Assembly: GCA_963806185.1 (NCBI GenBank)
Contig: CAWDXE010000004.1
Location: forward strand, 128,001 to 192,000
Source of the DNA: an uncultured candidate division Zixibacteria bacterium
Lineage (GTDB): Bacteria > Zixibacteria > MSB-5A5 > GN15 > FEB-12
Length of the DNA stretch: 64,000 nucleotides
Direction of reading: 5' to 3'
A model generated the notes under the pieces. It worked only from the letters and a program-made list of their open reading frames with translations. It had not been told where the DNA came from and did no database searches. Position 1 is the first letter of the stretch. The number at the start of each line of letters is the position of its first letter. Position numbers and translations under genes: made by a program. Shown here piece after piece: positions 25,481 to 40,240 of this stretch.

Positions 25481-25523
25481 AGACCATGTTTTTGGCCAGC
25501 CGGTTCATTTCGGGAAAATAGAC

Positions 25524-25881
25524 ATGTTCGAGACATTTTACCCTATTCTTTTCCTCGTCCTTGCTGCCACCGTCCTGGCCGTTACTTTTACGCTCATATC
25601 AGTTCTTATCGGCCGGCGCACCCGTCAGGGGAAGAAAGAACAACCCTACGAATGCGGTGTCGATCCGCAGGGTCACCACGCGCGACCCCGTACCGATAAA
25701 ATTCTTCATGGTCGCTATTTCCTTTATCCTGTTTGATATCGAAGTCATTTTCCTCCTCCCGTGGGCGGTCGTCGCCCGCGACCTCGGCATGTTCGGCTTC
25801 GTCAGCATCCTCATTTTCGCAACGGTCGTTATCGTCGGCTGGGTCTATGAACTCGGCCGTGGAGCCCTCAAGTGGGATTAG
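25524..25881 (+). CDS. nuoA: NADH-quinone oxidoreductase subunit A (one frameshift ~25670)
   Basis: PYECG in the first frame; FILFDIE-FLLPWA and GALKWD in the second. Confidence 0.9.
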
Positions 25882-26375
25882 AAGAGAAAATTCCTGATTC
25901 AATCATACTGACCACCGTCGATAAGATGGTCAACTGGGCGCACAAACGCTCCATGTGGCCGCTCGGCTTCGGCCTCGCCTGCTGTGCGATCGAGATGATC
26001 TCGACCTTTTCACCACATTTCGATCTCGCGCGCTACGGCATGGAAGTCATGCGCCCTTCGCCTCGCCAGGCTGACCTGATGATCGTCGCCGGCCGCGTCT
26101 CCATGAAAATGGCCCCGGTGGTCAAGACCCTTTACGAGCAGATGCCCAATCCGAAATGGGTCATTGCCATGGGCGCCTGCGCTTCGTGTGGCGGAGTGTT
26201 CAACAACTATGCTGTTCTGCAGGGTGTGGATCGCATCATCCCGGTTGACATTTACGTCCCCGGCTGTCCGCCTCGTCCCGAACAGCTGATGGATGGCATC
26301 CTGAAACTTCAGGAAAAACTCGAGCGCGAATCCATCAAGGACAAGCGTGCCGAATGGGGTCAGCGGATCGCATAA
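25872..26375 (+). CDS. nuoB: NADH-quinone oxidoreductase subunit B
   Basis: [21 protein letters not shown] and PGCPPRPE motifs. Confidence 0.96.
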
Positions 26376-26427
26376 AGGACATCGCACATCCGATCCGCCG
26401 ACCAAATGTAAATGGAGTTTGTGAATT

Positions 26428-26961
26428 TTGGCGCAAGATAATCCGGTCTCGCAACGAGTACGAGAGTTTCTCCAGGCGCGCTTCCCCGACGCCCTCGTCA
26501 GCGAGGACAACTTCCGCAACCAGCAATCGTTCACCATCAAGGCCGAACGACTGGTTGATCTCTGCCGGGCGCTACAGGAAGACGCCGACCCAAAATTCAA
26601 CTATCTCAGCGATATCACCTGCGTCGACTGGCTCGGTCATGCCGAAGAGAAGAAGGGACGCTTCGAAGTCGTCTACAACCTCTATTCGCTGTCCCATGCC
26701 TGCCGACTGCTTCTCAAAGTGCGACTCCACGCCGACTATCCCCAGTTGGACAGCCTCACGCCTCTCTGGAACGGCGCCAATTGGCTGGAACGCGAAGTCT
26801 GGGATCTCTTCGGCGTCGTCTTCGTCGGCCATCCCGACCTGACCAAGATCGTCACGGCCGACGATCTCGAAGGCCATCCGTTGCGTAAGGACTTTCCCCT
26901 TACCTACGAAACGCCCGTCTTCTCCTGGAACAAGGATGATCCGCCGGAGGTGATCAGGTAG
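26428..26961 (+). CDS. nuoC: NADH-quinone oxidoreductase subunit C
   Basis: RFEVVYNL, ANWLERE-WDLFG and GHPLRKDFP motifs. Confidence 0.95.
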   Translation: MAQDNPVSQRVREFLQARFPDALVSEDNFRNQQSFTIKAERLVDLCRALQEDADPKFNYLSDITCVDWLGHAEEKKGRFEVVYNLYSLSHACRLLLKVRLHADYPQLDSLTPLWNGANWLEREVWDLFGVVFVGHPDLTKIVTADDLEGHPLRKDFPLTYETPVFSWNKDDPPEVIR

Positions 26962-28134
26962 TGGCCGAAATCAAGACCATGCACATCAATATGGGCCCTC
27001 AGCACCCCTCCACTCACGGCGTGCTGCGTGTCGAGCTTGAACTTGAGGGCGAAACTGTCATCAAGGCCAAACCTGTCATCGGCTATCTGCATACCGGCAT
27101 CGAAAAGACGATGGAGTCCAAGCTGTACTACAAGGCGCTCCCCGCCACTGACCGAATGGACTACCTCGCGCCCATGTCGAACAATCTCGGCTACTGCCTT
27201 GCGGTCGAAAAACTACTTGATATCGATGTCCCGGAGAAAGTCAAATACGCCCGCGTCTGTCTTGCCGAGCTGACCCGTATCAATTCACATCTCGTCTGGC
27301 TCGGCACTCACGCTCTCGATATTGGTGCCATGTCGATGCTGTTATACACCTTCCGCGAACGCGAGTTGATCATCGACATCTACGAGGCCTGCGGCGGTCA
27401 GCGCATGATGACCTCCTACATCCGCATCGGCGGCCTTTCACATGAACTGCCGCCTGATTTCGACGAACGCGTGCGCAAAGTCCTTAAGGTCATTCCCCAG
27501 CGTCTGGAAGAGTACGAGACACTCCTTACCAAGAACCAGATATTCATCAGTCGCACCAAAGGCGTGGCCGTCATCTCCGCCGAGGATGCCATCAACTGGT
27601 CCCTCTCCGGTCCCATGGCCCGCGGCTCCGGTGTGAAGTACGACGTCCGCAAGGCGAATCCCTACTCCGGTTACGAGAAGTTTGATTTCAATATGGCCCT
27701 TGGCACCAACGGTGACGCCTACGATCGGTACCTCCTCCGCCTCGAGGAAATCCGTCAATCTCTGCGGATCATCCAGCAGTCGCTCGAAGGTATGCCGGAA
27801 GGTCCCTACCGCGCTCACGTGCCGGGTGTCGTTCTGCCGCCCAAGGAAGACGTCCTCCACAAGATGGAATCGCTGATCTTCCACTTTAAGATTGATCACC
27901 GAGGGCTTTCACGCCCCCACCGGCTCAGTCTATCAGGCGATCGAGTCGCCCAAGGGTGAGATTGGGTTCTTCATCACGGGCGACGGTTCCACGTATCCCC
28001 GCCGCGTCCGTGTCCGCCCGCCCTCTTTCATTAATCTCGCCGCTTTGCCCGCGCTGGTGGAGGGTCGGATGCTGGCCGACGTCATCGTGGCTATTGGTAC
28101 CATTGACATCGTTTTGGGAGAAGTTGACCGATGA
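26961..28134 (+). CDS. nuoD: NADH-quinone oxidoreductase subunit D (frameshift ~27890)
   Basis: GPQHPSTHGVLR, GYLHTG and DRMDY; second frame gives IESPKGE...DIVLGEVDR. Confidence 0.93.
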
Positions 28135-28607
28135 TTCTCACCGCTGAATCGGTGAAACAGATGAAAGATGCCGTGACCCGGTATCCGCAGAAAAAATCGG
28201 CGGTCCTCCCGGCGCTCACGATTGCCTATCGTCAGGTCGGACATCTGAACGACGACATATATAAGGAAATCTCGAACGCCATCGATGTCCCGTAGGTCGA
28301 GGTCGCCGAGGCAGCCACCTTCTACACCCTCTTCCCGAAACATCCGGTCGGCAAGTATCTCATCCAGGTCTGCCACAACATTTCGTGCGCCTTGCTCGGC
28401 GCCGATAGTCTGGTCGGGTATCTCGAACAGAAACTGCAGATCAAGAAAGGGGAGACCACCAAGGACAATCTGTTTACCTTGATTTCCGTCGAGTGCCTCG
28501 GCTCCTGCGCCACCGCGCCCATGATGCAGATCAATCAGGATTTTTACGAGAATCTGACCCGTGAAAAGGTCGACAAGATTTTGGAGGAATTGAGAGCTAA
28601 AGGCTGA
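28131..28607 (+). CDS. nuoE: NADH-quinone oxidoreductase subunit E (in-frame TAG at 28293-28295)
   Basis: Manual translation: RYPQKKSAVLPAL...DVP*VEVAEAATFY...VCHNISC...ECLGSC-APMM. Confidence 0.9.
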
Positions 28608-29941
28608 TGTTTTATTCACCGGTCATAACCAACGCCGCCGAGGCGGCCCAAAACGAGAAGCTGCACCTCTTCAGGTACGTCGAGGATCCCAACCAGACGA
28701 AGCTCGAAACGTACGACTCCCACGGCGGCTATGCCGCCTGGAACAAGGTGCTGACGTCGATGAAAGCCGACGACGTCATCGCGACGGTGAAGAACTCCGG
28801 CCTCCGCGGCCGTGGCGGCGCCGGATTCCCGACCGGCATGAAGTGGAGCTTCGTGCCGAAGGCCTCGCCGAAAGCCCGCTATCTCGTTTGCAACGCCGAC
28901 GAATCCGAACCGGGCACCTGCAAGGACCGCGTCATCATGGAACGCGATCCGCACGCCATGATCGAGGGCATGGCCATCGCCGCCTTTGCGATCGGCAGTC
29001 ACCTGATGTTTGTCTATATCCGCGGCGAATTCAACCATAGCATCGACACCGTCATCGCCGCCATGCGCGAGGCCTACGCCAAGGGCCATCTCGGCAAGAA
29101 TATCTACGGCTCCGGCTACGACCTCGACATGGTCGTCCACACCGGCGGCGGCGCCTACATCTGCGGCGAGGAAACCGCTCTCCTCAATTCCCTGGAAGGG
29201 GAGAAGGGACTCTCGCGCATCCGTCCGCCTTTCCCGGCGATCGAAGGCCTCTACGCCTCGCCGACCATCGTCAACAATGTCGAAACCCTTTCGGCCGTGC
29301 CGCACATCATCAATCGCGGCGCCGAATGGTATCGCACGCTCGGCACTGAGAAATCCGCCGGCACCAAAATTTTCAGCCTCAGCGGCCATGTCAAACGCCC
29401 GGGCAACTACGAGGTCGAACTCGGCTTCAACCTGAAAAAGTTCATTTTCGACCCCGCCTACGGTGGCGGCATGCTCGGCGATAAAAAATTGAAAGGTGTC
29501 ATCCCCGGCGGTGCTTCCACTCCGTTCCTCACACCGGATATGATCGACGTCCCGCTCGACTACGAAGGACTCACCCAGAAAGGCTCCATGCTCGGCTCCG
29601 GGGCGGTCATCGTCTTCAACGAAGACACCTGCATCGTCTGGGTCATCTGGAAGCTGATTCATTTCTTCCGCCACGAATCCTGCGGCAAATGTACCCCCTG
29701 CCGTCAGGGGACAGCCTGGCTTGAACAGATTATTGAGCGCATCGAGCACGGTCAGGGACGTCCCGGCGATATCGAGAAGATCGAAGACGTGTGCGGCAAT
29801 ATCCTCGGACGAACCATCTGTCCGCTCGGCGATGCCGCCGTCATGCCCATTCAGAGCGCTATTAAACACTGGCGCGATGAATGGCAGCATCATATCGATA
29901 ATAAACAGTGCATGGTAAAGACTCACTTCGAGTTCAGATAA
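28607..29941 (+). CDS. nuoF: NADH-quinone oxidoreductase subunit F
   Basis: GLRGRGGAGFPTGMKW, NADESEPG, YICGEETAL and ESCGKCTPCR motifs. Confidence 0.97.
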   Translation: MFYSPVITNAAEAAQNEKLHLFRYVEDPNQTKLETYDSHGGYAAWNKVLTSMKADDVIATVKNSGLRGRGGAGFPTGMKWSFVPKASPKARYLVCNADESEPGTCKDRVIMERDPHAMIEGMAIAAFAIGSHLMFVYIRGEFNHSIDTVIAAMREAYAKGHLGKNIYGSGYDLDMVVHTGGGAYICGEETALLNSLEGEKGLSRIRPPFPAIEGLYASPTIVNNVETLSAVPHIINRGAEWYRTLGTEKSAGTKIFSLSGHVKRPGNYEVELGFNLKKFIFDPAYGGGMLGDKKLKGVIPGGASTPFLTPDMIDVPLDYEGLTQKGSMLGSGAVIVFNEDTCIVWVIWKLIHFFRHESCGKCTPCRQGTAWLEQIIERIEHGQGRPGDIEKIEDVCGNILGRTICPLGDAAVMPIQSAIKHWRDEWQHHIDNKQCMVKTHFEFR

Positions 29942-29949
29942 GGAATCGC

Positions 29950-32536
29950 GTGTCCGAAGACGCCAAAACTGACGTTCGTACCAAGGCCGATGAGCAAGCC
30001 AAGCCTGCCGTGCCCGCGGTCACGCTCACCATTGACGGACGGCAGACCACCGTCCCTAAAGGCACCACCGTGCTTCGGGCCTCCCTTGATATGGGTATCA
30101 AGATTCCCTTTTTCTGCTGGCACCCCAAGCTCAAGCCGGTCGGCGCCTGCCGCATGTGTTACGTCGAAATCGAAAAGATGCCCAAGCTCCAGGTCTCGTG
30201 TGCCACAGAATGCACCGAAGGCATGATCGTCCACACCGATTCCCAGCAGGTGCTCGACGGACGCCGGGCCATCATCGAATTCACGCTGCTCAACCATCCG
30301 CTCGACTGCCCCACCTGCGACAAGGGGGGAGAGTGCGATTTGCAGGACTTGACTGTCGCACACGGCTACGACGACTCCCGCTTCGATTTCGAAAAGCACC
30401 GGCATATCGAAGACGAAGTGCACACCACTTTCGACGATCTGCCGATCGGCCCGGAGATCATTCTCAACCGCAATCGCTGCATCCTTTGTTACAAGTGCGT
30501 TCGCTCAAACAAAGAGGCTTTCGGCGAATACGATCTGGGCGCCTTCGAGCGTGGCGATCATACCGAAATCAACGCCGCCCCGAATCAGCAGGTCGACAAT
30601 CCCTTCTCCGGCAACCTGGTCGAGATCTGCCCGGTTGGCGCGCTGACCAATACCGATTGGCGCTACAAAATCCGCGTCTGGCTCACCGAAAAAATCGCCG
30701 CCGTTGATCCCTTTGGCTCATCCGGCATTAACATTAATCTTCAGCCGCGAACAGCATCAGAACAAGATCTTCCGCATCACGTCGCGGCGTAACGACGATA
30801 TCGATGACGGCTGGTTGCCCGACGTCACCCGCTACGGCTACCAGCTGGTGCAGTCCATCGAACGTCTGCAGAAACCGCTCATCAAGAAAAACGGCCAACA
30901 GGTGCAGGCGACGTGGGAAGAAGCCTTGGCCGTCATTGCCATGCGCCTCAAATCGATCAATGAGCAGCGCGGTTCCGTCTGTATCGGCGGCCTCGCCGGC
31001 CCTCAGCTCGATAACGGTTCTCTCTACGCCTTCAACAAGTTTTTGCGTACCGTCATCGGCACCAATGCCGTCGACTCTCGCTACGACTACAAGCACCTGC
31101 CCGCGACCGGCGATTCAATCTGGCAGGCCGCGTCGTCGCGACCGTTCTCGATCAACCAGATCGACGCCTCCGATGTCATCGTCACCTTCGGCACCGATCT
31201 CCTTCGCGAACACCCCAACGAATACCTGCGCATTCGTAAGGCCTGCGCCTTCAACAATGCCCGGTACTTTGCCGTCAATCCGTATGCGACCAAAACGGCC
31301 GACGTCGCCCGGCTGGAATTGACCTACACTCCCGGCACCGACGAGCTGATGCTCACCGCCATCTGTCTGGCCGCCATCGAAGAAAATCTGGTTCCACCGG
31401 CTGAAGCTTCCGCTCTCAAGGCCAAATTGCCGTCCACCTCGCTCAAAGAACTCGTCGAGGTGTGTGGAGTCGACGAATCGGAATTGAAATTCCTGGCCCG
31501 CGCCATCGCGGAAGGGAAGAAGGTCACCTTCTTCGCCGGCGAACTGGTCAGCACCAGCATCGCTCGCGAGACGATCGCCTCCGCGCTGTCCAATCTGAAT
31601 CGTCTCTTCGGTCTCGATCAGAAGGGCCAACTGGCTATCCTGCCGCGCCATGCCAATAGCAATGGCGCTGATCGCCTTGGCGCGGTCGCGACTCCTCTGC
31701 CGCAGGTCAAAGACGCGCTGAAAAAACTCTGGGGAGAATTCCCCGATACCGACCCCTGCAACACCGACGAGATGTTCGCCCGTGCCCGTAAAGACGAACT
31801 CGATGCCATGCTGATAATCGGCGCCAACCCGGTCATGCTCTACCCCGATCGCGAATTTGCCCGCGAAGCCATCGATAAACTCGACTTCCTGGTAGTCGCC
31901 GACCTCTTTGAAACCGACACCACCGCTCTCGCCGACGTTGTCCTGCCCCTTACCAGTTGGGCCGAACAAGCCGGCGACTTCATCAATCTGGAAAACAAGG
32001 TTCAGCGCTCTCTGCCTGGCATCAAGCCGGTCGCCGAATCGAAGTCGGCCGTCGACATCCTGACCGCCATCGCCGACGAAATGGGTCAGCGCCTCTTCGC
32101 GACCGATCGCGACTGCGCCGCCGAAACCGCCCGTTTGCTCGAGGTCGGCCCTTATCTGCCGCTCCCGAAAGAGTATCTCGCGATCACCCCGGCCACCGAA
32201 CCTGCCGATGCCGACCACCCGTTTGTGCTGGTCGTGGGCGATGACCCGCATCACGCAGGCTACTTGACCGAGAAAGCTACCTCGCTTTCGAATTTCGTCA
32301 GCGAAGCGTATGTTGAAATCGCTCCCGCCACCGCCGCCAAACTCGGCGTGAGGGAGAAGGGGATGGTGCGCCTCGAAACCAAAACGGCCAAAATAATCCT
32401 TCCGGTGCGCCTATCCGACTACCTTGATAATGACGTTGTCCTCGTGCCGCGCAACTTCGCGGCCGCCCGGGTCAACAGTTTATTGAGTCGCACCAAACGT
32501 GTGGATCGGGTCAAAGTTACCCGCATGGACGCCTGA
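29950..32536 (+). CDS. nuoG: NADH-quinone oxidoreductase subunit G (frameshift ~30730)
   Basis: FCWHP, GACRMC, HPLDCPTCDKGGEC-LQD, RCILCYKCVR and CPVGAL; molybdopterin-oxidoreductase-like C-terminal part in the next frame. Confidence 0.92.
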
Positions 32537-32538
32537 GC

Positions 32539-33566
32539 ATGCTTGAGACAATCATCATATCCTCCATTCAGGTCATATTCGTTATGGTGTGCGTCCTGAC
32601 CGGGTGTGCCTGGTCCACCTGGCTCGAACGCAAGGTGGTGGGTCATATGCAGCATCGCTTCGGCCCCACCTATGCCGGCCCTTATGGATTACTGCAGCCC
32701 ATTGCCGATGCCGTCAAACTGATTTTTAAAGAAGACATCATTCCCAGCAACGTCGAGCGTATCACCTACGCCCTCGCGCCGATTCTCGCCTTCATCCCGT
32801 CGATGCTCTCGTTTGCCGTGATTCCGTTCTCACCGGACTTCACCGTCTTTGGCTACCACTTCAACGGCATGCTCTCCGATCTGAACATCGGCATCCTGTT
32901 TGTCTTCGCCGTCACTTCGCTCGGCGTCTACGGCATTATTCTCGCCGGTTGGTCATCGGGATCGAAATACTCTCTGCTCGGCGGCATCCGATCGTCGGCG
33001 CAAATGATTTCCTACGAGATCAGCTACGGCCTCTCGATCATCGGCGTGATCCTGGTGGCCGGCACGCTTTCGATGCGCGAACTGGTGGACATGCAGGACG
33101 GGCACTTCCTCTATGTCATCCCGACTGGTTTCGTCTTCAAGGCAGCCGTTCGGCTTCATCCTCTATTGATCTGTGCGCTATCGCCGAAACCAATCGCGCC
33201 CCCTTCGACCTCCCCGAAGCCGAATCCGAACTCGTCGGTGGTTATCATACCGAGTATTCGTCCATGCGATTCTCGATGTTCTTCATCAGCGAATACGCCA
33301 ACATGCTGGCCGTCGCTTGCGTCGGCACTACCCTGTTTCTCGGCGGATGGCAATCCCCCTTGCCCTGGAACTTGCCGTGGTATTTTTTCGGCGACGGTGT
33401 CCTCTGCTTTCTCGCCAAAGTAGTGCTCTTTATGTTCTGTTATGTCTGGTTGCGCGCCACCTTCCCTCGGTTGCGCTACGACCAGTTGATGAATTTCGGA
33501 TGGAAAGTGCTGTTCCCGTTAGCTATTGCCAACACGCTCATCACCGGTTACTTCGTGTTGCGCTGA
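32539..33566 (+). CDS. nuoH: NADH-quinone oxidoreductase subunit H (indels ~33140-33175)
   Basis: [16 protein letters not shown] and AQMISYE; next frame gives [17 protein letters not shown] and PRLRYDQLM. Confidence 0.92.
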
Positions 33567-33593
33567 TCGGATAGGCTGAAGGATAGATGTGTT

Positions 33594-34100
33594 ATGAAAG
33601 AGATTCTTAGAGCGTTCGGCCATGTGATCTGGAAGATGCCGCAAGGCTTCCTGGTGACGCTGAAGTACTTCTTTAAGAAGCCGGTTACGCTGGACTATCC
33701 GAAGAAGAAGAAGCCGATGGCCCCGCGCTATCGCGGCAAACACTACCTCGAACGTTACGACGACGGCACCGAACGCTGCGTTTGCTGCGGTCTGTGTGCC
33801 GCGGCCTGTCCTGCCGACGCCATCTACATGGAACCGTCGGAAAACGAAAAGGGCGAACGCTTCGCCAAAGTGTACGAAATAAATCTCCTGCGGTGCATCT
33901 TCTGCGGCTTCTGCGAGGAAGCCTGCCCCGAGGAAGCGATCTTCCTCGGTCGCGAATACGAATTCTCCGATGACAACCGCAACTCGTTCATTTATACCAA
34001 GGAGCAGATGCTGGTCCCGTACCCGCGCAAGGACAATCCGTTCAAACGGATCTACCGCCGCGTGCGCAAAGTCTACGGTGTGCCGGACGCGACACGATGA
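33594..34100 (+). CDS. nuoI: NADH-quinone oxidoreductase subunit I
   Basis: CVCCGLCAAACP and RCIFCGFCEEACP ferredoxin motifs. Confidence 0.96.
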   Translation: MKEILRAFGHVIWKMPQGFLVTLKYFFKKPVTLDYPKKKKPMAPRYRGKHYLERYDDGTERCVCCGLCAAACPADAIYMEPSENEKGERFAKVYEINLLRCIFCGFCEEACPEEAIFLGREYEFSDDNRNSFIYTKEQMLVPYPRKDNPFKRIYRRVRKVYGVPDATR

Positions 34101-34684
34101 CACTCGACGTTGTCATATTCTTCATCTCGGCTGTGGTGGCCGTTTTCGGCGCGACTATGATGATCGCCCAGCGCAATCCGGTCGCCTCCGTGCTCTACCT
34201 GATCCTCTCCCTGGTGGCTCAGGCCGTCTGTTACGTTCAGCTTGGCGCCCTCTTTCTCGGCTCCCTGCTCGTTATCGTCTACGCCGGCGCCATCATGGTG
34301 TTGTTCTTGTTTGTCATCATGCTGCTCAACCTGCGCGGCTCGGAGGATTTGGGCAAGCCCTCTTCGCGGCTCGGCCGTTTCACCAAGGTGATCGTCGCGA
34401 TTCTCCTTGTCGTCGAACTGCTCTTCGTCGTGAAGAGCGTGGTGCTACCGGTGGTCCCCACCGGCATCATGGTCGCTCCCTCCGAGTTCGGCTCCGTCCC
34501 GTCAGTATCGAGACTGCTCTTTACGAAATATTTGTATCCGTTCCAGCTGACCGGCATCTTGCTCTTGATCGCCGTCGTCGGCGCCGTGGTGATCGCCCGC
34601 AAGGATCGCGATGATGACCACCTGGACGAGGAACACAAGCCGGAAGCGGTCGACGTTGACACCCCCACGAAGGCGGTGAGGTAG
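34097..34684 (+). CDS. nuoJ: NADH-quinone oxidoreductase subunit J
   Basis: NPVASVL and VYAGAIMVLFLFVIMLL motifs. Confidence 0.95.
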   Translation: MTLDVVIFFISAVVAVFGATMMIAQRNPVASVLYLILSLVAQAVCYVQLGALFLGSLLVIVYAGAIMVLFLFVIMLLNLRGSEDLGKPSSRLGRFTKVIVAILLVVELLFVVKSVVLPVVPTGIMVAPSEFGSVPSVSRLLFTKYLYPFQLTGILLLIAVVGAVVIARKDRDDDHLDEEHKPEAVDVDTPTKAVR

Positions 34685-34687
34685 GCT

Positions 34688-34990
34688 ATGGTACCTGTCT
34701 CGGCATACTTGATTCTCGCCATCGTCCTCTTCGGCATCGGCACCATCGGTGTCATGATCTCGCGAAACATGATCGTCCTGTTCATGGCGATTGAACTGAT
34801 GCTCAACGCCGCCAATCTGGCCCTGATCGCTTTCTCGCGCGCGATTGGCAACATGGATGGCCAGGTGTTTGTCTTTCTGGTCCTGACGGTCGCCGCCGCC
34901 GAGGCCGCCGTCGGTCTGGCGATGATTATTACGATTTATCGCAACCGGGACTCGATCAATATCGACCGGTTCAGCATGATGAAATGGTAG
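34688..34990 (+). CDS. nuoK: NADH-quinone oxidoreductase subunit K
   Basis: [10 protein letters not shown] and [11 protein letters not shown] motifs. Confidence 0.96.
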
Positions 34991-35000
34991 GAAAGGTCTG

Positions 35001-36948
35001 ATGTCCGAGTATCTGTTTCTCATCCCGCTGCTGCCGCTGATCGGCTTCGTGATCAACGGCCTTCTGCTTGGGACGTCTCCCCAAAACGCTGGTCTCGCTG
35101 ATCGCCTGCGGTACGGTTGGCCTGTCCTTCGTACTCTCAGTCATGCTCTTCTTCCAGCTTAAGGCGATGCCGGTCACCGAGCGCGTCATCACTCAGATCC
35201 TCTGTACCTGGATTCCCTCCGGCTCGTTTAACGTCAACATCGGCTTCATGCTCGACCCGCTCTCGGCGGTCATGATCCTGGTCGTCACCGGTGTCGGCTT
35301 CCTGATTCACGTCTATTCCGTCGGCTACATGGCGCACGATCACGGCTACGGCCGCTACTTCGCGTATCTGAATTTGTTCACCTTCTCCATGCTCACGCTC
35401 GTGCTCGCCGACAACTATCTTCTCATGTTTGTCGGCTGGGAAGGAGTGGGACTCTGCTCGTATCTTCTGATCGGCTTCTGGTTCGAAAAGAAGTCAGCCT
35501 CCGACGCCGGGAAGAAGGCGTTCATCGTCAACCGGATCGGCGACTTCGGCTTCCTGCATCGGCCTTGTTCATCATCTTCTGGCAAGTCGGCTCGCTCGAT
35601 TTCCGCACCGTCATGGACCACGCCCCCACCGCCTTTGCCGCCGGTGGCGGCCTCATCACCGCCGCCTGCTTGCTCCTCTTCCTCGGCGCGACCGGCAAGT
35701 CGGCCCAGATTCCGCTGTATGTCTGGCTGCCCGATGCCATGGAAGGCCCCACGCCGGTCTCCGCACTCATCCATGCCGCCACCATGGTCACCGCCGGCGT
35801 TTACATGATCGCTCGTTCCAGTGTGCTGTACATGATGGCCCCCGACGCCCTTCTGGTTGTCGCCGGTCATCGGCGCCGCCACCGCCCTGTTTGCCGCCAC
35901 TATCGGCCTGGCCCAAAATGATATCAAGCGCGTGCTGGCCTATTCAACCATCAGCCAGCTCGGCTATATGTTTCTCGCCTGCGGTGTGGCGTCCTTCACG
36001 GCCGGCATTTTCCATCTGATGACCCACGCCTTCTTCAAGGCGCTTCTCTTCCTCGGCGCCGGGTCGGTCATCCATGCCATGTCCAGCGAACAGGATATGC
36101 GCAAGATGGGCGGCCTGAAAAAACATCTCCCGATCACCTATACGACCATGCTGGTTGCCACGCTGGCGATCGCCGGTATCCCCGGCTTCTCCGGCTTCTT
36201 CTCCAAGGATGAAATCCTCTGGAAAGCCTTCTCGTCGGCTCACGGCTCGGTCCTCCTCTGGCTCGTCGGGGCCGTTACCGCCGGTCTCACTGCCTTCTAT
36301 ATGTTCCGCCTGATCTACATGACTTTCCACGGCACCGAGCGGATGGACAAACACACCAAAGAGCATATCCACGAATCACCCCGGTCCATGACCGTACCGC
36401 TCATGGTCCTTGCCGTCCTCTCGGTCATTGGCGGCTGGATCGGCATCCCTCACGTGCTGGGTTTCCCCAACCTCTTCGAGGAATGGCTCGCGCCCGCCAT
36501 TGCCGGTGGTTCCGCTTTGCACGGTACCGAGGAAGCCCGTGCCGCTATGAGCGGGGGAGAGGCCGGACTCGAACTTTCGCTCATGCTGATTTCGATCATC
36601 ATCGCCGTCGTCGGCTGGCTCGGCGCCCGCTACTATTATTCGAAACATCCCGAGGCCGCCACCAAACTGGCCGAGCGCTTCTCCGGCTTCCGCAATCTGC
36701 TGGTTCATAAATATTACGTCGATGAAATCTACGGCGCCGTCATTGTGCGCCCGCTCGTCTACTTCTCGGTCTTTCTCTGGAAGATATTCGACGTGCTCAT
36801 CATCGACGGTCTCATTAACGGCGTCGCCGTCCTGTGGCGCGAAATTTCGGACACACTACGTTACGTCCAGTCCGGCCGGGTGCGCGGGTACGCCACCGTC
36901 TTCGTGCTGGGTGTCGTTGTTCTCGTGGCCTATATGGTCACCAGGTAA
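35001..36948 (+). CDS. nuoL: NADH-quinone oxidoreductase subunit L (three or more indels, ~35065, ~35560, ~35865)
   Basis: [12 protein letters not shown] start; [41 protein letters not shown] and [10 protein letters not shown] across three frames. Confidence 0.92.
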
Positions 36949-36951
36949 GGT

Positions 36952-38533
36952 ATGGGCATTGATATTCTGACATTAGTGACGTTTTTCCCGCTGGTCGGCG
37001 TGGTCCTTCTCCTCTTCGTCCCCAGCCGCCAGACCGACACGATCAAGGGCGTGGCACTGATCATCTCCTTCATCACCATGCTCGTCTCGTTTGCCCTGTA
37101 CTATCTGTTTGATCCTCTTGCCAGTGGCATGCAGTTCGAGCGCGTGATCCCCTGGGTCAGCTCGTTCGGCATCAACTACCATATGGGCATCGACGGCATC
37201 TCACTGCTGCTGATCGTCCTGACCACCGTCCTTTCCGTTCTGTGCGTGATCGCCTCCTGGAACAGCATCACCGTCAACGTGAAGGGGTATTTCATTTCGA
37301 TGCTCCTCCTCACGACCGGCATGATCGGCGTCTTCTGCGCCCTCGACTTGTTCCTCTTCTACGTCTTCTGGGAAGTGATGCTGGTCCCGATGTATTTCCT
37401 CATCGGGATCTGGGGCGGCCCGCGTCGCGTCTATGCCGCCATCAAGTTTGTGCTCTTTACGATGTTCGGCTCGCTGCTGATGCTGGTCGCCATCCTCTGG
37501 CTCTACTTCAACAATCAGGCCGCCTCGGGCGAATACACCTTTGACCTTCTGCAGCATCATGCAAACGCCCATTCCGCCCGGCGCCCAGCTCTGGCTGTTC
37601 GGCGCCTTTGGCCTGGCCTTTGCCATCAAGGTGCCGCTCTGGCCGTTCCATACCTGGCTGCCCGATGCCCACGTTCAGGCACCGACGGCCGGCTCCGTCA
37701 TTCTGGCCGGCGTCCTGCTGAAGATGGGCACGTACGGTTTCCTCCGCATCTGCCTGCCGCTGTTCCCGGATGCCACCATCACCTTCATGCCGTACATCTC
37801 GGTTCTGGCTGTGATCGCGATCATCTATGGCGCGCTGGTCGCGATGGTCCAGAAGGACATCAAGTCGCTGGTCGCCTTTTCGTCGGTCTCGCATATGGGC
37901 TTTGTCATGCTCGGTATGTTCGCCCTCAACCTTCAGGGCCTGCAGGGCTCGGTTCTTCAGATGATTAACCACGGCGTCTCGACCGGTGCGCTCTTCTTTA
38001 TGGTGGGCATGATCTACGACCGCCGGCACACGCGCATGATCGAGGACTTCGGCGGCATCGCCAAAGTGATGCCGATCTATTCCGCCTTCTTCATGATCGT
38101 CACCCTGTCGTCGATCGGCCTGCCGTTTACCAACGGTTTCGTCGGTGAATTCCTGATCCTGCTCGGAACCTTCAAGGCCAACACCTGGTACGCCGTCTTC
38201 GCGGCCACCGGCGTCATTCTGGCCGCCGGCTATATGCTCTGGATGTACCAGCGGGTGATCTTCGGCAAGGTCACCAAACCGGAAAACGAAAAACTCGATG
38301 ATATCGGCTGGCGCGAACGCGGCATCCTGGTCCCGCTCGTCATTCTCATTTTCTGGATCGGTATTTATCCGAAGCCGCTGCTGACTCGGATCGAACCGGC
38401 CGTGAAGCAGGTTCTGACTCAGGTAGCACAGGCCAAAAACGCCCATCTCGACAGCCAGTTCCAGATCAGAATGGCCAATGAAATTCCGGTCGCACGACTC
38501 CCTGCAGTTGCGGGTGGAGAAGGAGGCCGGCAA
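36952..38533 (+). CDS. nuoM: NADH-quinone oxidoreductase subunit M (frameshift ~37550; 3' end runs in frame into the glutaredoxin ORF as assembled)
   Basis: GIDGISL and FWEVMLVPM; next frame gives [24 protein letters not shown] and SSVSHMG. Confidence 0.9.
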
Positions 38534-38755
38534 ATGAGCAATGTTACCATCTACACCAAGGACGGCTGCCCCTATTGCGCGGCGGCTAAGAAGCACTATA
38601 CGGATTTGGGCAAGCCCTTCACGGAAATTAACGTGCACCGCACGGCCGGCGCCAAAGAGAAGCTGCTCGCTCTGTCGGGCGGCCAGAGCATTGTGCCGGT
38701 GATTGTTGAGGACGGCCGCGTTCTGGTCGGCTTCGGCGGCGGTTGAGGAATTTAG
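38534..38755 (+). CDS. UXX-star glutaredoxin-like selenoprotein (73 aa, Sec at TGA 38744-38746)
   Basis: AGGAGG SD 7 nt before [13 protein letters not shown]...VPVI...VGFGGG-TGA-GGA-ATT-TAG (U-G-I-stop); hairpin downstream. Confidence 0.8.
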
Positions 38756-38760
38756 TATGA

Positions 38761-38778
38761 CGGCGACGGTCGTCGCCG
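38761..38778 (+). promoter_or_regulatory. Putative bacterial SECIS element
   Basis: cggcgac-ggtc-gtcgccg; apical loop starts with GG, 21 nt after the in-frame UGA. Confidence 0.7.
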
Positions 38779-38788
38779 AACCAAAATT

Positions 38789-40240
38789 ATGACTGACTAC
38801 ACTACTGCTCTCTCAGTTGACATCGGCCTGGTGCTGCCCCAGGTGGTTCTCCTTGTCGCCGCCTCGCTCATCATGATCTTCATTGCCTCCGTCCGGTTCC
38901 AGCGCCTCGCCCCGTATATCGCCATCGCCGCCTTCGGTGTCGCCTTTGGCCTGTCCGTCGCCGAGTGGAACTACCCCAGCGCCGGTTTCGCCGGCATGGT
39001 CACTGTCGACAACTTCGGCGTCATGTTCAACCTGATCTTTATCGCCGGTTCGCTCCTCTCACTCCTGCTCGCCTTCCGCTTCCTCCATGTGAAAGGTCTC
39101 GAGAAACCGGAATTCTACGTTCTCTTGCTCGTCTCTACGCTCGGCATGACGGTCATGGCCAATACCTGCGATCTGGTGGTCATGTTTCTCGGCCTCGAAA
39201 TCATGTCCGTGCCTTTGTACGTCATGGCCGGCCTGAATCGACGTTCGCTCGAATCTAATGAGGCCGGCATCAAGTATTTCATCATGGGTGCTTTTGCGAC
39301 CGCTTTCCTTCTTATGGGTATTGCCTTCATCTATGGCGCCGCACAGACGACTGATCTTCGCCGCCTGGTCGCCGACTTCAATTACATTCAGGACACCTAC
39401 AAGATCTATCTCTATGCCGGTGTCGCCTTCATCCTGGTTGGTTTCGGCTTCAAGATCGCCGCCGTGCCCTTTCATACCTGGGTTCCCGACGTCTACACCG
39501 GCGCTCCGACGCCTGTCACCGCCTTCTTCTCGGTCGGCCCCAAGGCGGCCGGTTTCGCGGTCATGCTGCGGATCTTTACGTTCGGCTTCGGTCAGCTTGA
39601 AATCGTCTCACAGGTGCTCTGGGTCATCGCCGTGCTCACCATGACCGTCGGCAATATCCTCGCCCTCCGCCAGGACAACGTGAAACGGATGCTCGCCTAT
39701 TCCTCGATCGCCCACGCCGGTTATATCCTGGTCGCGCTCACCGTGCGCAGCAGCGACGCTGTCTCGGCCGCTATCTTTTACCTGATTGCCTACACGCTCT
39801 TCAACCTCGGTGCCTTCGCCGTTCTCGTCGCTCTCGAGACCCGCTCCGGCATGAAATCGGAATTCTCTGAACTGAGCGGCATGGCCAAGGCCAGTCCCTA
39901 CCTTACGGCCGTCCTCGCCCTGTTCATGTTCGCCCTGGCCGGCTTCCCGCCGACCATCGGCTTCGTCGGGAAATTCTATGTCTTCTCCGCTGCCGTCAAA
40001 TCCGGGTTTTTATGGTTGACTGTCATCGGCGTTCTCAATTCATTCGTGTCGGTTTACTATTATCTGCGGGTCATCAAGACCACGTACTTTGACCAGTACG
40101 ATGGCCAGGCTGTCCCAGCGACCGTTTCGCCGGCCCTCTTTGTAGTCCTCGTCGTGACTGTCGCCGGCACACTCGGCCTCGGCTTGTTCCCGCAGCAATT
40201 GTTGGATCTGTCGCGCGCCGCTATCTTCGCCTTCCTGTAA
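38789..40240 (+). CDS. nuoN: NADH-quinone oxidoreductase subunit N
   Basis: EAGIKYFIMG, FKIAAVPFHTWVPDVYTGAP, KRMLAYSSIAHAGY and YYYLRVI motifs. Confidence 0.96.
   Translation: MTDYTTALSVDIGLVLPQVVLLVAASLIMIFIASVRFQRLAPYIAIAAFGVAFGLSVAEWNYPSAGFAGMVTVDNFGVMFNLIFIAGSLLSLLLAFRFLHVKGLEKPEFYVLLLVSTLGMTVMANTCDLVVMFLGLEIMSVPLYVMAGLNRRSLESNEAGIKYFIMGAFATAFLLMGIAFIYGAAQTTDLRRLVADFNYIQDTYKIYLYAGVAFILVGFGFKIAAVPFHTWVPDVYTGAPTPVTAFFSVGPKAAGFAVMLRIFTFGFGQLEIVSQVLWVIAVLTMTVGNILALRQDNVKRMLAYSSIAHAGYILVALTVRSSDAVSAAIFYLIAYTLFNLGAFAVLVALETRSGMKSEFSELSGMAKASPYLTAVLALFMFALAGFPPTIGFVGKFYVFSAAVKSGFLWLTVIGVLNSFVSVYYYLRVIKTTYFDQYDGQAVPATVSPALFVVLVVTVAGTLGLGLFPQQLLDLSRAAIFAFL

What the first reader, a model, noticed from the sequence alone, without database searches (positions are those of the whole stretch)
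38521..38780. Hidden selenoprotein inside the complex I operon (UXX-star glutaredoxin between nuoM and nuoN)
Seen: a CPYC glutaredoxin-like ORF ends GFGGG-TGA-GGA-ATT-TAG. A 7-bp GC hairpin with a GGTC loop follows, its loop 21 nt after the TGA. Known: UXX-star proteins end in Sec-X-X-stop, and bacterial SECIS elements lie just 3' of the UGA with G at the start of the loop. Inference: a CxxC plus C-terminal Sec redox protein co-expressed with complex I, possibly for redox control or Fe-S/membrane-arm assembly. I do not know of this placement being described.
Basis: partly seen in the sequence, partly recalled or inferred. Interest (0 to 1): 0.75.

Follow-up and report, generated by a model that had tools for sequence, protein, structure and literature searches.

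The report
Selenoprotein redoxin inside complex I operon
A tiny glutaredoxin-like gene of an already catalogued family, whose apparent stop codon very likely encodes selenocysteine, sits between the nuoM and nuoN genes of respiratory complex I in this genome and in most sampled Zixibacteria, where it likely serves as a dispensable redox-repair helper whose selenium tail is predicted to fold back onto its own active site.

Summary
Observation confirmed. The 73-codon gene (38534-38755) reads CPYC...GFGGG-TGA-GGA-ATT-TAG, with a hairpin whose GGUC loop lies 21 nt after the TGA. The genome has selA, selB, selD and tRNA-Sec. All 93 loci examined keep TGA-NNN-NNN-stop, and the hairpin covaries. It belongs to the known Uxx-star family (NF041212, 110 bits, cut-off 66).

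All 93 loci lie at the nuoM-nuoN junction, across 11 Zixibacteria families, whereas 35 of 36 informative metagenome Uxx-star loci lie elsewhere. The gene is dispensable: it was lost about six times within this order, and whole families lack it.

AlphaFold predicts that the Sec-Gly tail pairs with the cis-Pro substrate loop, and that strand vanishes when the tail is cut. These bacteria carry bshC and no gshB. A built-in Cys12/Sec71 redox pair is therefore likely.

Recent losses fall mostly in genomes without heme-copper oxidases (6 of 8, against 25 of 109; post hoc), which hints at oxidant protection. A link to complex I rests on gene order only. I found no description in print, but could not read the family's defining paper. 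The scan has noted this arrangement before in at least 8 other genomes.

The parts
38520..38526 (+). Shine-Dalgarno-like AAGGAGG, 7 nt before the redoxin ATG
   Evidence: read from the sequence; purine-rich stretches precede the start in most relatives
38534..38755 (+). Uxx-star glutaredoxin-like selenoprotein gene, 73 aa with Sec71, stop TAG
   Evidence: NF041212 110.1 bits, cut-off 66; PF00462
38567..38578 (+). CPYC motif (Cys12-Cys15); Cys12 invariant, Cys15 replaceable
   Evidence: CPYC 82, CPFC 6, CPHC 2, CPYS 3 of 93; [CU]P[YF]T in 46 of 48 metagenome members
38690..38698 (+). Ile53-Val54-Pro55 loop (the cis-Pro loop of the thioredoxin fold), predicted pairing partner of the Sec tail
   Evidence: V54 and P55 invariant in alignment A1; DSSP strand at 53-54 with the tail, absent without it
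38744..38746 (+). in-frame TGA, inferred selenocysteine codon (U71)
   Evidence: TGA in 93 of 93 loci; '1 TGA' in 108 of 108 order-level matches; also in an independent 151-nt metagenome contig with 2 differences over 38704-38854
38747..38755 (+). two sense codons (Gly-Ile) and the true stop
   Evidence: synonymous variation (GGA/GGC/GGT/GGG; TTT/TTC) and a stop that varies, TAA 56, TGA 20, TAG 17
38761..38778 (+). bacterial SECIS-like hairpin, 7-bp stem, GGUC loop 21 nt after the TGA, lying wholly 3' of the stop in the spacer before nuoN
   Evidence: fits the bSECIS constraints quoted in PMC13188914
37541..38533 (+). 3' part of nuoM (5' part 36952-37554 is in another frame); in frame with the redoxin in this assembly
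38789..40240 (+). nuoN
25872..36948 (+). nuoB to nuoL of a complete complex I operon with the NuoEFG NADH module (context; several genes frameshifted in this assembly)

Best explanation
This is a Uxx-star family glutaredoxin-fold gene fixed between nuoM and nuoN that very likely encodes a 73-residue selenoprotein, whose Sec-Gly tail is predicted to fold back onto Cys12 as a built-in glutathione substitute and which likely repairs oxidised thiols of complex I during O2 or NO exposure as a dispensable helper. Steps: (1) UGA71 is read as Sec through the downstream SECIS (genomic evidence strong; incorporation not measured). (2) The protein is made from the nuo transcript (inferred from overlap and spacing). 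(3) Cys12 attacks an oxidised or bacillithiolated target thiol (inferred from the fold). (4) Sec71, held against the cis-Pro loop, resolves Cys12 as a selenenylsulfide (predicted geometry). (5) Cys15, bacillithiol or the TrxB system re-reduces it (inferred). (6) The main client is the cytoplasmic arm of complex I (inferred from gene order and from the loss pattern; the weakest step). Approximate odds: step 1, 0.97; steps 3-4, 0.65; step 6, 0.45.
For: Sec machinery: selA, selB, selD (itself with an in-frame TGA) and tRNA-Sec, all over cut-off. TGA-NNN-NNN-stop in 93 of 93 loci with synonymous drift after the TGA. SECIS covariation: 7 of 7 pairs change on both sides, 0 of 500 shuffles reach the score, slid controls are lower. 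Fold: Grx/NrdH-like, pLDDT 93, Z 10.8 at rmsd 1.1-1.7 over 64-67 residues. DSSP gives strand at 53-54 and 71-72 in the full model, and 53-54 is lost when the tail is removed. Thioredoxin-fold proteins bind partners by an antiparallel strand on the cis-Pro loop (PMC2665069, passage). The second Cys is dispensable across the family. gshB over cut-off in 0 of 61 genomes, bshC in 58 of 61; trxB present and gshF not found in this genome. Position: 93 of 93 loci at the nuoM/nuoN junction in 11 families, none found relocated, and inherited vertically (nearest redoxin in the same family 51 of 54). All 20 redoxin-positive operons read in full carry nuoEFG. The second nuo-like cluster has nuoM abutting nuoN in 5 of 5 relatives. 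Recent losses: 6 of 8 genomes (5 of 6 events) have no PF00115 match, against 25 of 109 with the gene intact (Fisher p 0.004). Precedent in mitochondria: Grx2 deglutathionylates complex I (PMC2529008, passages).
Against: The gene is dispensable. It is deleted to relics in G009, G027, G058 and G142, frameshifted in G138 and gone in genus g68. It is missing from families f6, f9, f10, f14 and f16, which keep full nuoA-N operons and mostly selA (selA over cut-off in 50 of 58 negatives). Outside this clade the family is not tied to nuo genes (35 of 36 informative metagenome loci). The operon tolerates unrelated inserts. No Nuo cysteine tracks the gene: the best column, NuoF 'GTCKD' (15 of 20 versus 0 of 12), follows one clade, is absent from 5 positives and is kept in 4 of 4 recent losers. 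The oxidase association was found post hoc, treats kin as independent, includes NO reductases, may reflect general gene loss in anaerobes, and does not hold among deeper families (p 0.5). The two new negatives found afterwards both have an oxidase: one lacks the orthologous nuoN in its assembly, the other belongs to g68. The tail pairing is read from DSSP strings only, with Sec modelled as Cys; no coordinates or distances were available. No Cys-for-Sec homologue was found (0 of 93 loci; 120 of 120 listed database proteins end at GFGGG).
Confidence: 0.45

Rival explanations
1. A real selenoprotein but an operon passenger. It entered the nuo operon once in an early Zixibacteria ancestor and stays because it gains strong expression. 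It does general cytoplasmic thiol or bacillithiol housekeeping unrelated to complex I.
For: A single insertion site with vertical descent is one event, not 93. Family members elsewhere sit beside unrelated genes. Other inserts occur in this operon, including a methyltransferase conserved in two families. Repeated loss leaves complex I genes intact. No co-varying cysteine.
Against: No relocation among 93 loci although NuoN has diverged to about 42% identity. When absent from the operon it was not found elsewhere in the genome over cut-off. The oxidase-linked losses point to respiration, though they fit a general antioxidant equally well.
Confidence: 0.37
2. A metal- or Fe-S-handling factor: Cys12, Cys15 and Sec71 bind or deliver a metal or cluster during assembly of the peripheral arm.
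For: The review PMC13188914 says Sec in UXX-star proteins may act as a metal-binding ligand (passage). Two metagenome members lie beside radical SAM and ArsR genes. Positive operons carry the cluster-rich NuoEFG.
Against: Complete operons with all cluster cysteines exist without it. The CPYC motif with cis-Pro matches redox-active Grx/NrdH. [quoted passage not shown]
Confidence: 0.1
3. A stable accessory subunit of Zixibacteria complex I, analogous to the thioredoxin-fold NDUFA2 bound to NDUFS1 (NuoG), acting as a redox sensor.
For: Translational coupling to nuoM. An in-frame NuoM fusion in one relative, G149, and in this assembly. The NDUFA2 precedent (PMC8762328 section 6).
Against: Easy, repeated loss. 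Fusion is seen in only 2 of 74 resolvable loci and 0 of 80 in a second, overlapping set. The NuoM C-terminus faces the periplasm by recalled E. coli topology, the wrong side for a cytoplasmic redoxin.
Confidence: 0.06
4. TGA is a plain stop, the protein is a 70-residue NrdH-like redoxin, and the hairpin is a terminator or processing signal.
For: Databases annotate it so (120 of 120 listed proteins end at GFGGG). No Cys homologue was found. Sec incorporation was not measured.
Against: The first stop is TGA in 93 of 93 loci while the second varies among all three stop codons. The two codons between keep Gly and a hydrophobic residue with synonymous changes. The loop G and its spacing are conserved. 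The hairpin is not called as a terminator.
Confidence: 0.02

Closest known systems
Uxx-star family glutaredoxin-like (seleno)proteins, NCBIfam NF041212 (sub-models NF041114, NF041211, NF047338; fusion NF045501)
   Same: Score 110.1 bits over positions 1-70 of 70; Grx fold; Gly-rich tail ending U-X-X-stop; SECIS just past the stop.
   Different: CPYC rather than the [U/C]PYT seen in 46 of 48 metagenome members and the UxxT listed for family 1 in PMC13188914. Tail mostly GG[GS]UG[FIY] rather than GGTUGV. Fixed place in the nuo operon rather than varied neighbourhoods.
NrdH-redoxins and small dithiol glutaredoxins (E. coli NrdH 1h75, C. glutamicum NrdH 4fiw, BC3987 3zij, cGrx1 7c10, cGrx2 4tr0, E. 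coli Grx3 3grx)
   Same: Same fold over residues 1-69, Z 9.7-10.8, rmsd 1.1-2.0; CxxC and cis-Pro loop.
   Different: All NrdH and Grx family models score below cut-off. The model has no C-terminal helix; a Sec tail takes its place. No ribonucleotide reductase neighbours. The host lacks gshB.
Mitochondrial Grx2 acting on complex I (PMC2529008)
   Same: [quoted passage not shown]
   Different: Grx2 is glutathione-dependent, has no Sec and is not encoded with complex I. The action of the present protein on complex I is untested.
NDUFA2 (B8), thioredoxin-fold accessory subunit of eukaryotic complex I (PMC8762328)
   Same: Small thioredoxin-fold protein associated with complex I and proposed as a redox sensor.
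   Different: NDUFA2 lacks CxxC, binds NDUFS1 stably and is needed for assembly. This gene has CxxC plus Sec and is repeatedly lost. No homology between them was tested or seen in the top hits.

Membership tests
Uxx-star (seleno)protein, NF041212 | HMM score over the curated cut-off | tested here: met
   110.1 bits with the tail, 102.7 without; cut-off 66
Uxx-star (seleno)protein, NF041212 | C-terminal U-X-X-stop after a Gly-rich stretch | tested here: met
   TGA-GGA-ATT-TAG here; 93 of 93 loci
Bacterial selenoprotein | [quoted passage not shown] | tested here: met
   GGUC loop, 7 bp, 21 nt, -13.1 kcal/mol; covariation. bSECISearch itself was not available.
Bacterial selenoprotein | selA, selB, selC, selD in the genome | tested here: met
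   all over cut-off
Bacterial selenoprotein | Cys-containing homologue at the Sec position | tested here: inconclusive
   None in 93 loci or the 120 best database proteins; the distant-homologue search could not be run and the metagenome pattern required TGA
Bacterial selenoprotein | Sec actually incorporated | not testable with these tools
   needs 75Se labelling or MS
UXX-star family 1, NF041114 | score over cut-off | tested here: inconclusive
   74.7 with Sec read as Cys, 67.7 without the tail; cut-off 72
UXX-star family 1, NF041114 | N-terminal UxxT motif (as tabulated in PMC13188914) | tested here: not met
   CPYC here; CxxC in 90 of 93 loci; not filed under family 1
Classical glutathione-dependent glutaredoxin | CxxC and cis-Pro loop on a Grx fold | tested here: met
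Classical glutathione-dependent glutaredoxin | host makes glutathione | tested here: not met
   gshB over cut-off in 0 of 61 genomes, gshF not found in this 82% complete genome; gshA not searched
NrdH-redoxin | family score and linkage to class Ib ribonucleotide reductase genes | tested here: not met
   TIGR02194 38.2 bits against 85.75; neighbours are nuoM and nuoN
Complex I accessory subunit (NDUFA2-like) | stable binding to a core subunit | not tested
Complex I accessory subunit (NDUFA2-like) | required for an intact complex | tested here: inconclusive
   16 of 20 redoxin-negative clusters read in full are nuoA-N operons with EFG, so it is not universally required; activity not measurable here

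The most novel reading that the evidence does not exclude
Zixibacteria encode a dedicated selenium-dependent repair enzyme for respiratory complex I inside the nuo operon. It is a glutaredoxin that carries its own glutathione as a tethered Sec-Gly tail, keeps NuoF/NuoG thiols reduced during O2 or NO respiration, and is shed when lineages give up heme-copper oxidases. It would be a bacterial counterpart of the mitochondrial Grx2/NDUFA2 link, and the first assigned client and mechanism for the Uxx-star family.
Probability: 0.3. Interest if true: 0.8.

Novelty: new variant of a known kind. Interest (0 to 1): 0.52.

Why it matters
The Uxx-star family is widespread and has no known function. This locus gives it two testable handles. 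One is a mechanism: a C-terminal Sec-Gly that would replace glutathione, which applies to the whole family and can be tested with a 73-residue recombinant protein. The other is a candidate client, complex I. If the client holds, it would be a selenoprotein serving a bacterial complex I, a link I did not find in the searches run. The practical yield is certain either way: the gene is truncated at its TGA in all 120 best database entries.

Tried and rejected
(1) Terminator reading of the hairpin: not called by the terminator scan; no credible Rfam match (one hit at E 0.69).
(2) Genome-wide TGA reassignment: rejected, since TGA is the true stop in 20 of 93 loci and the TCA-anticodon tRNA is tRNA-Sec.
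(3) Real NuoM-redoxin fusion in this genome: judged unlikely. There are 7 frameshift breaks in nuoD, G, H, L and M of this assembly, and relatives are separate in 72 of 73 resolvable loci. Read-laying did not span the nuoM tail, so it is not excluded.
(4) Co-varying cysteines in Nuo subunits: none beyond ancestry.
(5) Loss explained by loss of Sec machinery: rejected, selA is over cut-off in 5 of 5 and 50 of 58 negatives.
(6) Loss explained by loss of nuoEFG: not in 16 of 20 negatives.
(7) Expression: no RNA holder listed.
(8) Other phyla: the GTDB scan kept only the best 80 of 364 loci, and all were nuoM-linked. No centre outside the phylum was obtained. The search of 50%-identity representatives never ran.
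(10) No language-model atlas look-up was obtained.
(11) Haft and Tolstoy 2025 (mSystems 10:e0141724), cited by PMC13188914 for UXX-star families and their neighbourhoods, is not held and was not read.

Full report
What is in the window. A 73-codon gene starts at 38534 behind AAGGAGG, carries CPYC at residues 12-15 and ends GFGGG-TGA-GGA-ATT-TAG at 38755. A 7-bp hairpin with a GGUC loop follows at 38761-38778, its loop 21 nt after the TGA, and nuoN starts at 38789. Upstream lies a full nuoA-M run with the NuoEFG module. The assembly is error-prone: intact subunits from a relative align in pieces with frame changes in nuoD, nuoG, nuoH, nuoL (three) and nuoM. In it nuoM has no stop before the redoxin. 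Among 74 of 93 loci where the nuoM frame could be followed, 45 have the nuoM stop overlapping the redoxin start, 27 have a gap of at most 89 nt, and 2 are in frame: this one and G149. I read the fusion here as a probable indel error, unproven (one search did not span it).

Is the TGA selenocysteine? The genome has selA (498 bits), selB (330), selD (390, with one in-frame TGA) and tRNA-Sec, each over cut-off. The protein scores 110.1 bits on NF041212, cut-off 66. In 93 loci (this one, 55 from the same order, 37 from other orders) the first stop is TGA every time. Two codons follow that keep Gly and a hydrophobic residue in 88 of 93, with synonymous variation, and then a stop that is TAA 56, TGA 20 or TAG 17 times. 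A hairpin of at least 5 bp with G at the start of the loop, 15-24 nt from the TGA, is present in 87 of 92 distinct sequences, against 15% of dinucleotide shuffles. On 33 of these aligned by MAFFT (chosen mostly for similar loops), 88% of cells pair, all 7 pairs have double-sided changes, and 0 of 500 shuffles reach the covariation score; the slid controls score 0.08-0.28 against 0.61. The hairpin meets the bSECIS criteria quoted in PMC13188914 (passages). An independent 151-nt metagenome contig covers 38704-38854 with two differences. No Cys-for-Sec homologue turned up; the 120 best of 434 database proteins all end at GFGGG. I put Sec recoding at about 0.97.

Where it sits. Named relatives are mostly labelled Zixibacteria. 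NF041212 is over cut-off in 138 of 201 genomes sampled from the phylum and in 108 of 117 genomes of the order (relatives at least 90% complete, plus this one). All 93 loci I opened are at the nuoM/nuoN junction: both flanks are seen in 89, and the other 4 end at a contig edge with one flank. They span 11 families. A second, overlapping set gave 79 of 80 with both flanks and one contig end. I did not open the remaining positives. Redoxin and NuoM+NuoN identities correlate (Spearman 0.58, 55 loci; pairs not independent), and the nearest redoxin is from the same family in 51 of 54, which fits vertical descent. The second nuo-like cluster in these genomes has nuoM abutting nuoN (5 of 5), and in this genome it shows no nuoF or nuoG hit.

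It is dispensable. G009, G027 and G058 keep selA and an orthologous nuoM-nuoN. In their spacers I read remnants by eye: the first codons of the redoxin in all three, and a SECIS-like hairpin in two. G142 has an internal deletion, G138 a frameshifted copy, and genus g68 no trace. Families f6, f7, f9, f10, f14, f15, f16 and f19 have no match over cut-off, though selA is over cut-off in 50 of 58 negatives. In 47 of 48 negatives with nuoM in view there is no trace between the genes. A FastTree tree of NuoM+NuoN (55 positive, 43 negative and 5 paralogous rows, a subset of the loci held) interleaves positives and negatives. This suggests one early origin and repeated loss, but deep nodes are weak (0.14-0.65) and I ran no clade test. 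Of 40 operons read in full, 20 of 20 positives and 16 of 20 negatives are nuoA-N with EFG; the four f7/f15 clusters hold only nuoJ-N.

Outside the clade. Of 36 with at least 600 nt of flank, one, a CPYC form, is between nuoM and nuoN and 35 are not. Their neighbours include metallo-beta-lactamase-fold, thioesterase, Thy1, OPT, NDK, UvrA, radical SAM and ArsR genes. So the nuo link is a property of this lineage, not of the family. In these 51 the N-terminal motif is U-P-[YF]-T 29 times, C-P-Y-T 17, CxxC 2 and cut off 3.

How it likely works. AlphaFold gives a Grx/NrdH fold (pLDDT 93; Z 10.8 to NrdH and BC3987). In the full model, with Sec as Cys, DSSP marks residues 53-54 and 71-72 as strand. 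In a matched model cut at the TGA, 53-54 loses that mark and the pLDDT of residues 61-70 falls from 91 to 80. Residues 53-55 are the cis-Pro loop, where thioredoxin-fold proteins bind partners as an antiparallel strand next to the nucleophilic Cys (PMC2665069, passages). That glutathione's Cys-Gly binds at the same place in glutaredoxins is recalled, not read. The inference is that U71-G72 lies where a substrate or glutathione would, beside Cys12. This agrees with Cys12 and Sec71 being the invariant pair while the second Cys is not, and with hosts that have bshC (58 of 61) and no gshB over cut-off (0 of 61). TrxB is present here. I noted this idea before reading the scan's earlier notes, one of which raises it too; that is not independent support.

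Is complex I the client? [quoted passage not shown] One further lead: within the order, 6 of 8 genomes with a lost or broken gene and an orthologous nuoM-N have no heme-copper oxidase family match, 5 of 6 events, against 25 of 109 with the gene intact (Fisher p 0.004; 5 of 7 versus 17 of 92 at >=90% completeness, p 0.006). Four negatives without an orthologous nuoN in the assembly (G021, G035, G201, G225) were left out of the count. The lead was seen post hoc in 4 of 5 cases. It ignores relatedness, PF00115 includes NO reductases, and deeper families show nothing (7 of 25 versus 6 of 15, p 0.5). Against: no Nuo cysteine follows the gene beyond ancestry, the operon accepts unrelated inserts, and one ancient insertion explains the synteny. 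Binding could not be modelled. I give the complex I client reading 0.45 and the passenger reading 0.37.

Novelty. The family is known. I found no description of this placement: 'UXX-star' with 'selenoprotein' returns one paper, whose main text has no 'nuo', 'complex I' or 'Zixibacteria'. BSepDB's main text lacks 'UXX' and 'Zixibacteria'. Searches listed nothing relevant (listings only, plus passages of PMC8318568). Haft and Tolstoy 2025, the paper most likely to mention it, was not held; no supplements were read, and either may bear on this claim. The scan's index holds 12 earlier notes of the same arrangement in at least 8 other genomes (8 shown) and none combining it with oxidase loss.

Verdict. 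A real, misannotated selenoprotein of a known family, in a CxxC variant with a phylum-wide but dispensable place in the complex I operon. The mechanism is testable and the client is unproven. Interest 0.52; new variant of a known kind.

Noticed in passing
L275:15213-15962, L276:15189-15920 and the matching ORF in L277 (G114, G099, G135; families f14 and f9): A 242-249 aa class I SAM methyltransferase (PF08241) with a conserved YxCIHCNKxTP stretch sits between nuoL and nuoM in redoxin-negative operons of two sister families (3 of 4 read; absent in G197). Possibly another complex I accessory gene.
   Followed up: partly
G086, G087, G079, G062, G078, G075, G064, G063, G092, G082, G090, G076 (coordinates): bshC lies 2-3 kb from selA on the same strand in at least 12 genomes of several families, linking bacillithiol and Sec synthesis genes; not so in this window's genome.
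   Followed up: no
L116 (G149:C198), around the redoxin start: NuoM runs in frame into the redoxin (open frame 600 aa) while keeping a strong SD before the redoxin ATG; a possible natural fusion. Its genus-mate G098 is not fused.
   Followed up: partly
L079, L080, L081, L127 (nuoM-nuoN spacers of G027, G009, G058, G142): Relics of the deleted gene: the first codons remain, with a SECIS-like hairpin in G027, G058 and G142, marking independent recent deletions.
   Followed up: yes
G000:C1:265000-275000: A second nuo-like cluster (B, C, D, H, K, L, M, N hits at 34-58% identity) with no nuoF/G hit and no redoxin; separate NuoF-like genes at C4:203745, C1:555601 and C8:95545, and a further hydrogenase- or Mrp-like cluster near C1:946000-953000.
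   Followed up: partly
L278-L281 (families f15 and f7): The orthologous cluster holds only nuoJ-K-L-M-N within 17 kb, preceded by unrelated genes such as a DEAD/DEAH-type helicase; the rest of the nuo operon must lie elsewhere.
   Followed up: no
window 28607-29941 (nuoF): NuoF has Cys in NADESEPGTCKDR where deeper families have Phe (15 of 20 redoxin-positive, 0 of 12 deep negative, 4 of 4 recent losers); clade-linked. That mitochondrial NDUFV1 has Cys here is recalled.
   Followed up: partly
L290:6077-6925, L300:6211-7182, L296:5745-6341 (coordinates on the nuo strand): One-off inserts in the operon: a nuclease-like ORF and a TPR-like ORF between nuoE and nuoF, and a transposase-like ORF between nuoD and nuoE (named by eye, not scanned).
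   Followed up: no
window 25500-37600: At least 7 frameshifts in nuoD, G, H, L and M (plus one apparent in nuoA), typical of uncorrected long-read indels; apparent pseudogenes or fusions in this window should be treated with caution.
   Followed up: partly
L322, L360 (metagenome): A Uxx-star gene between a radical SAM/SPASM gene and an ArsR regulator in two loci, suggesting a metalloid-related neighbourhood for other family members.
   Followed up: no
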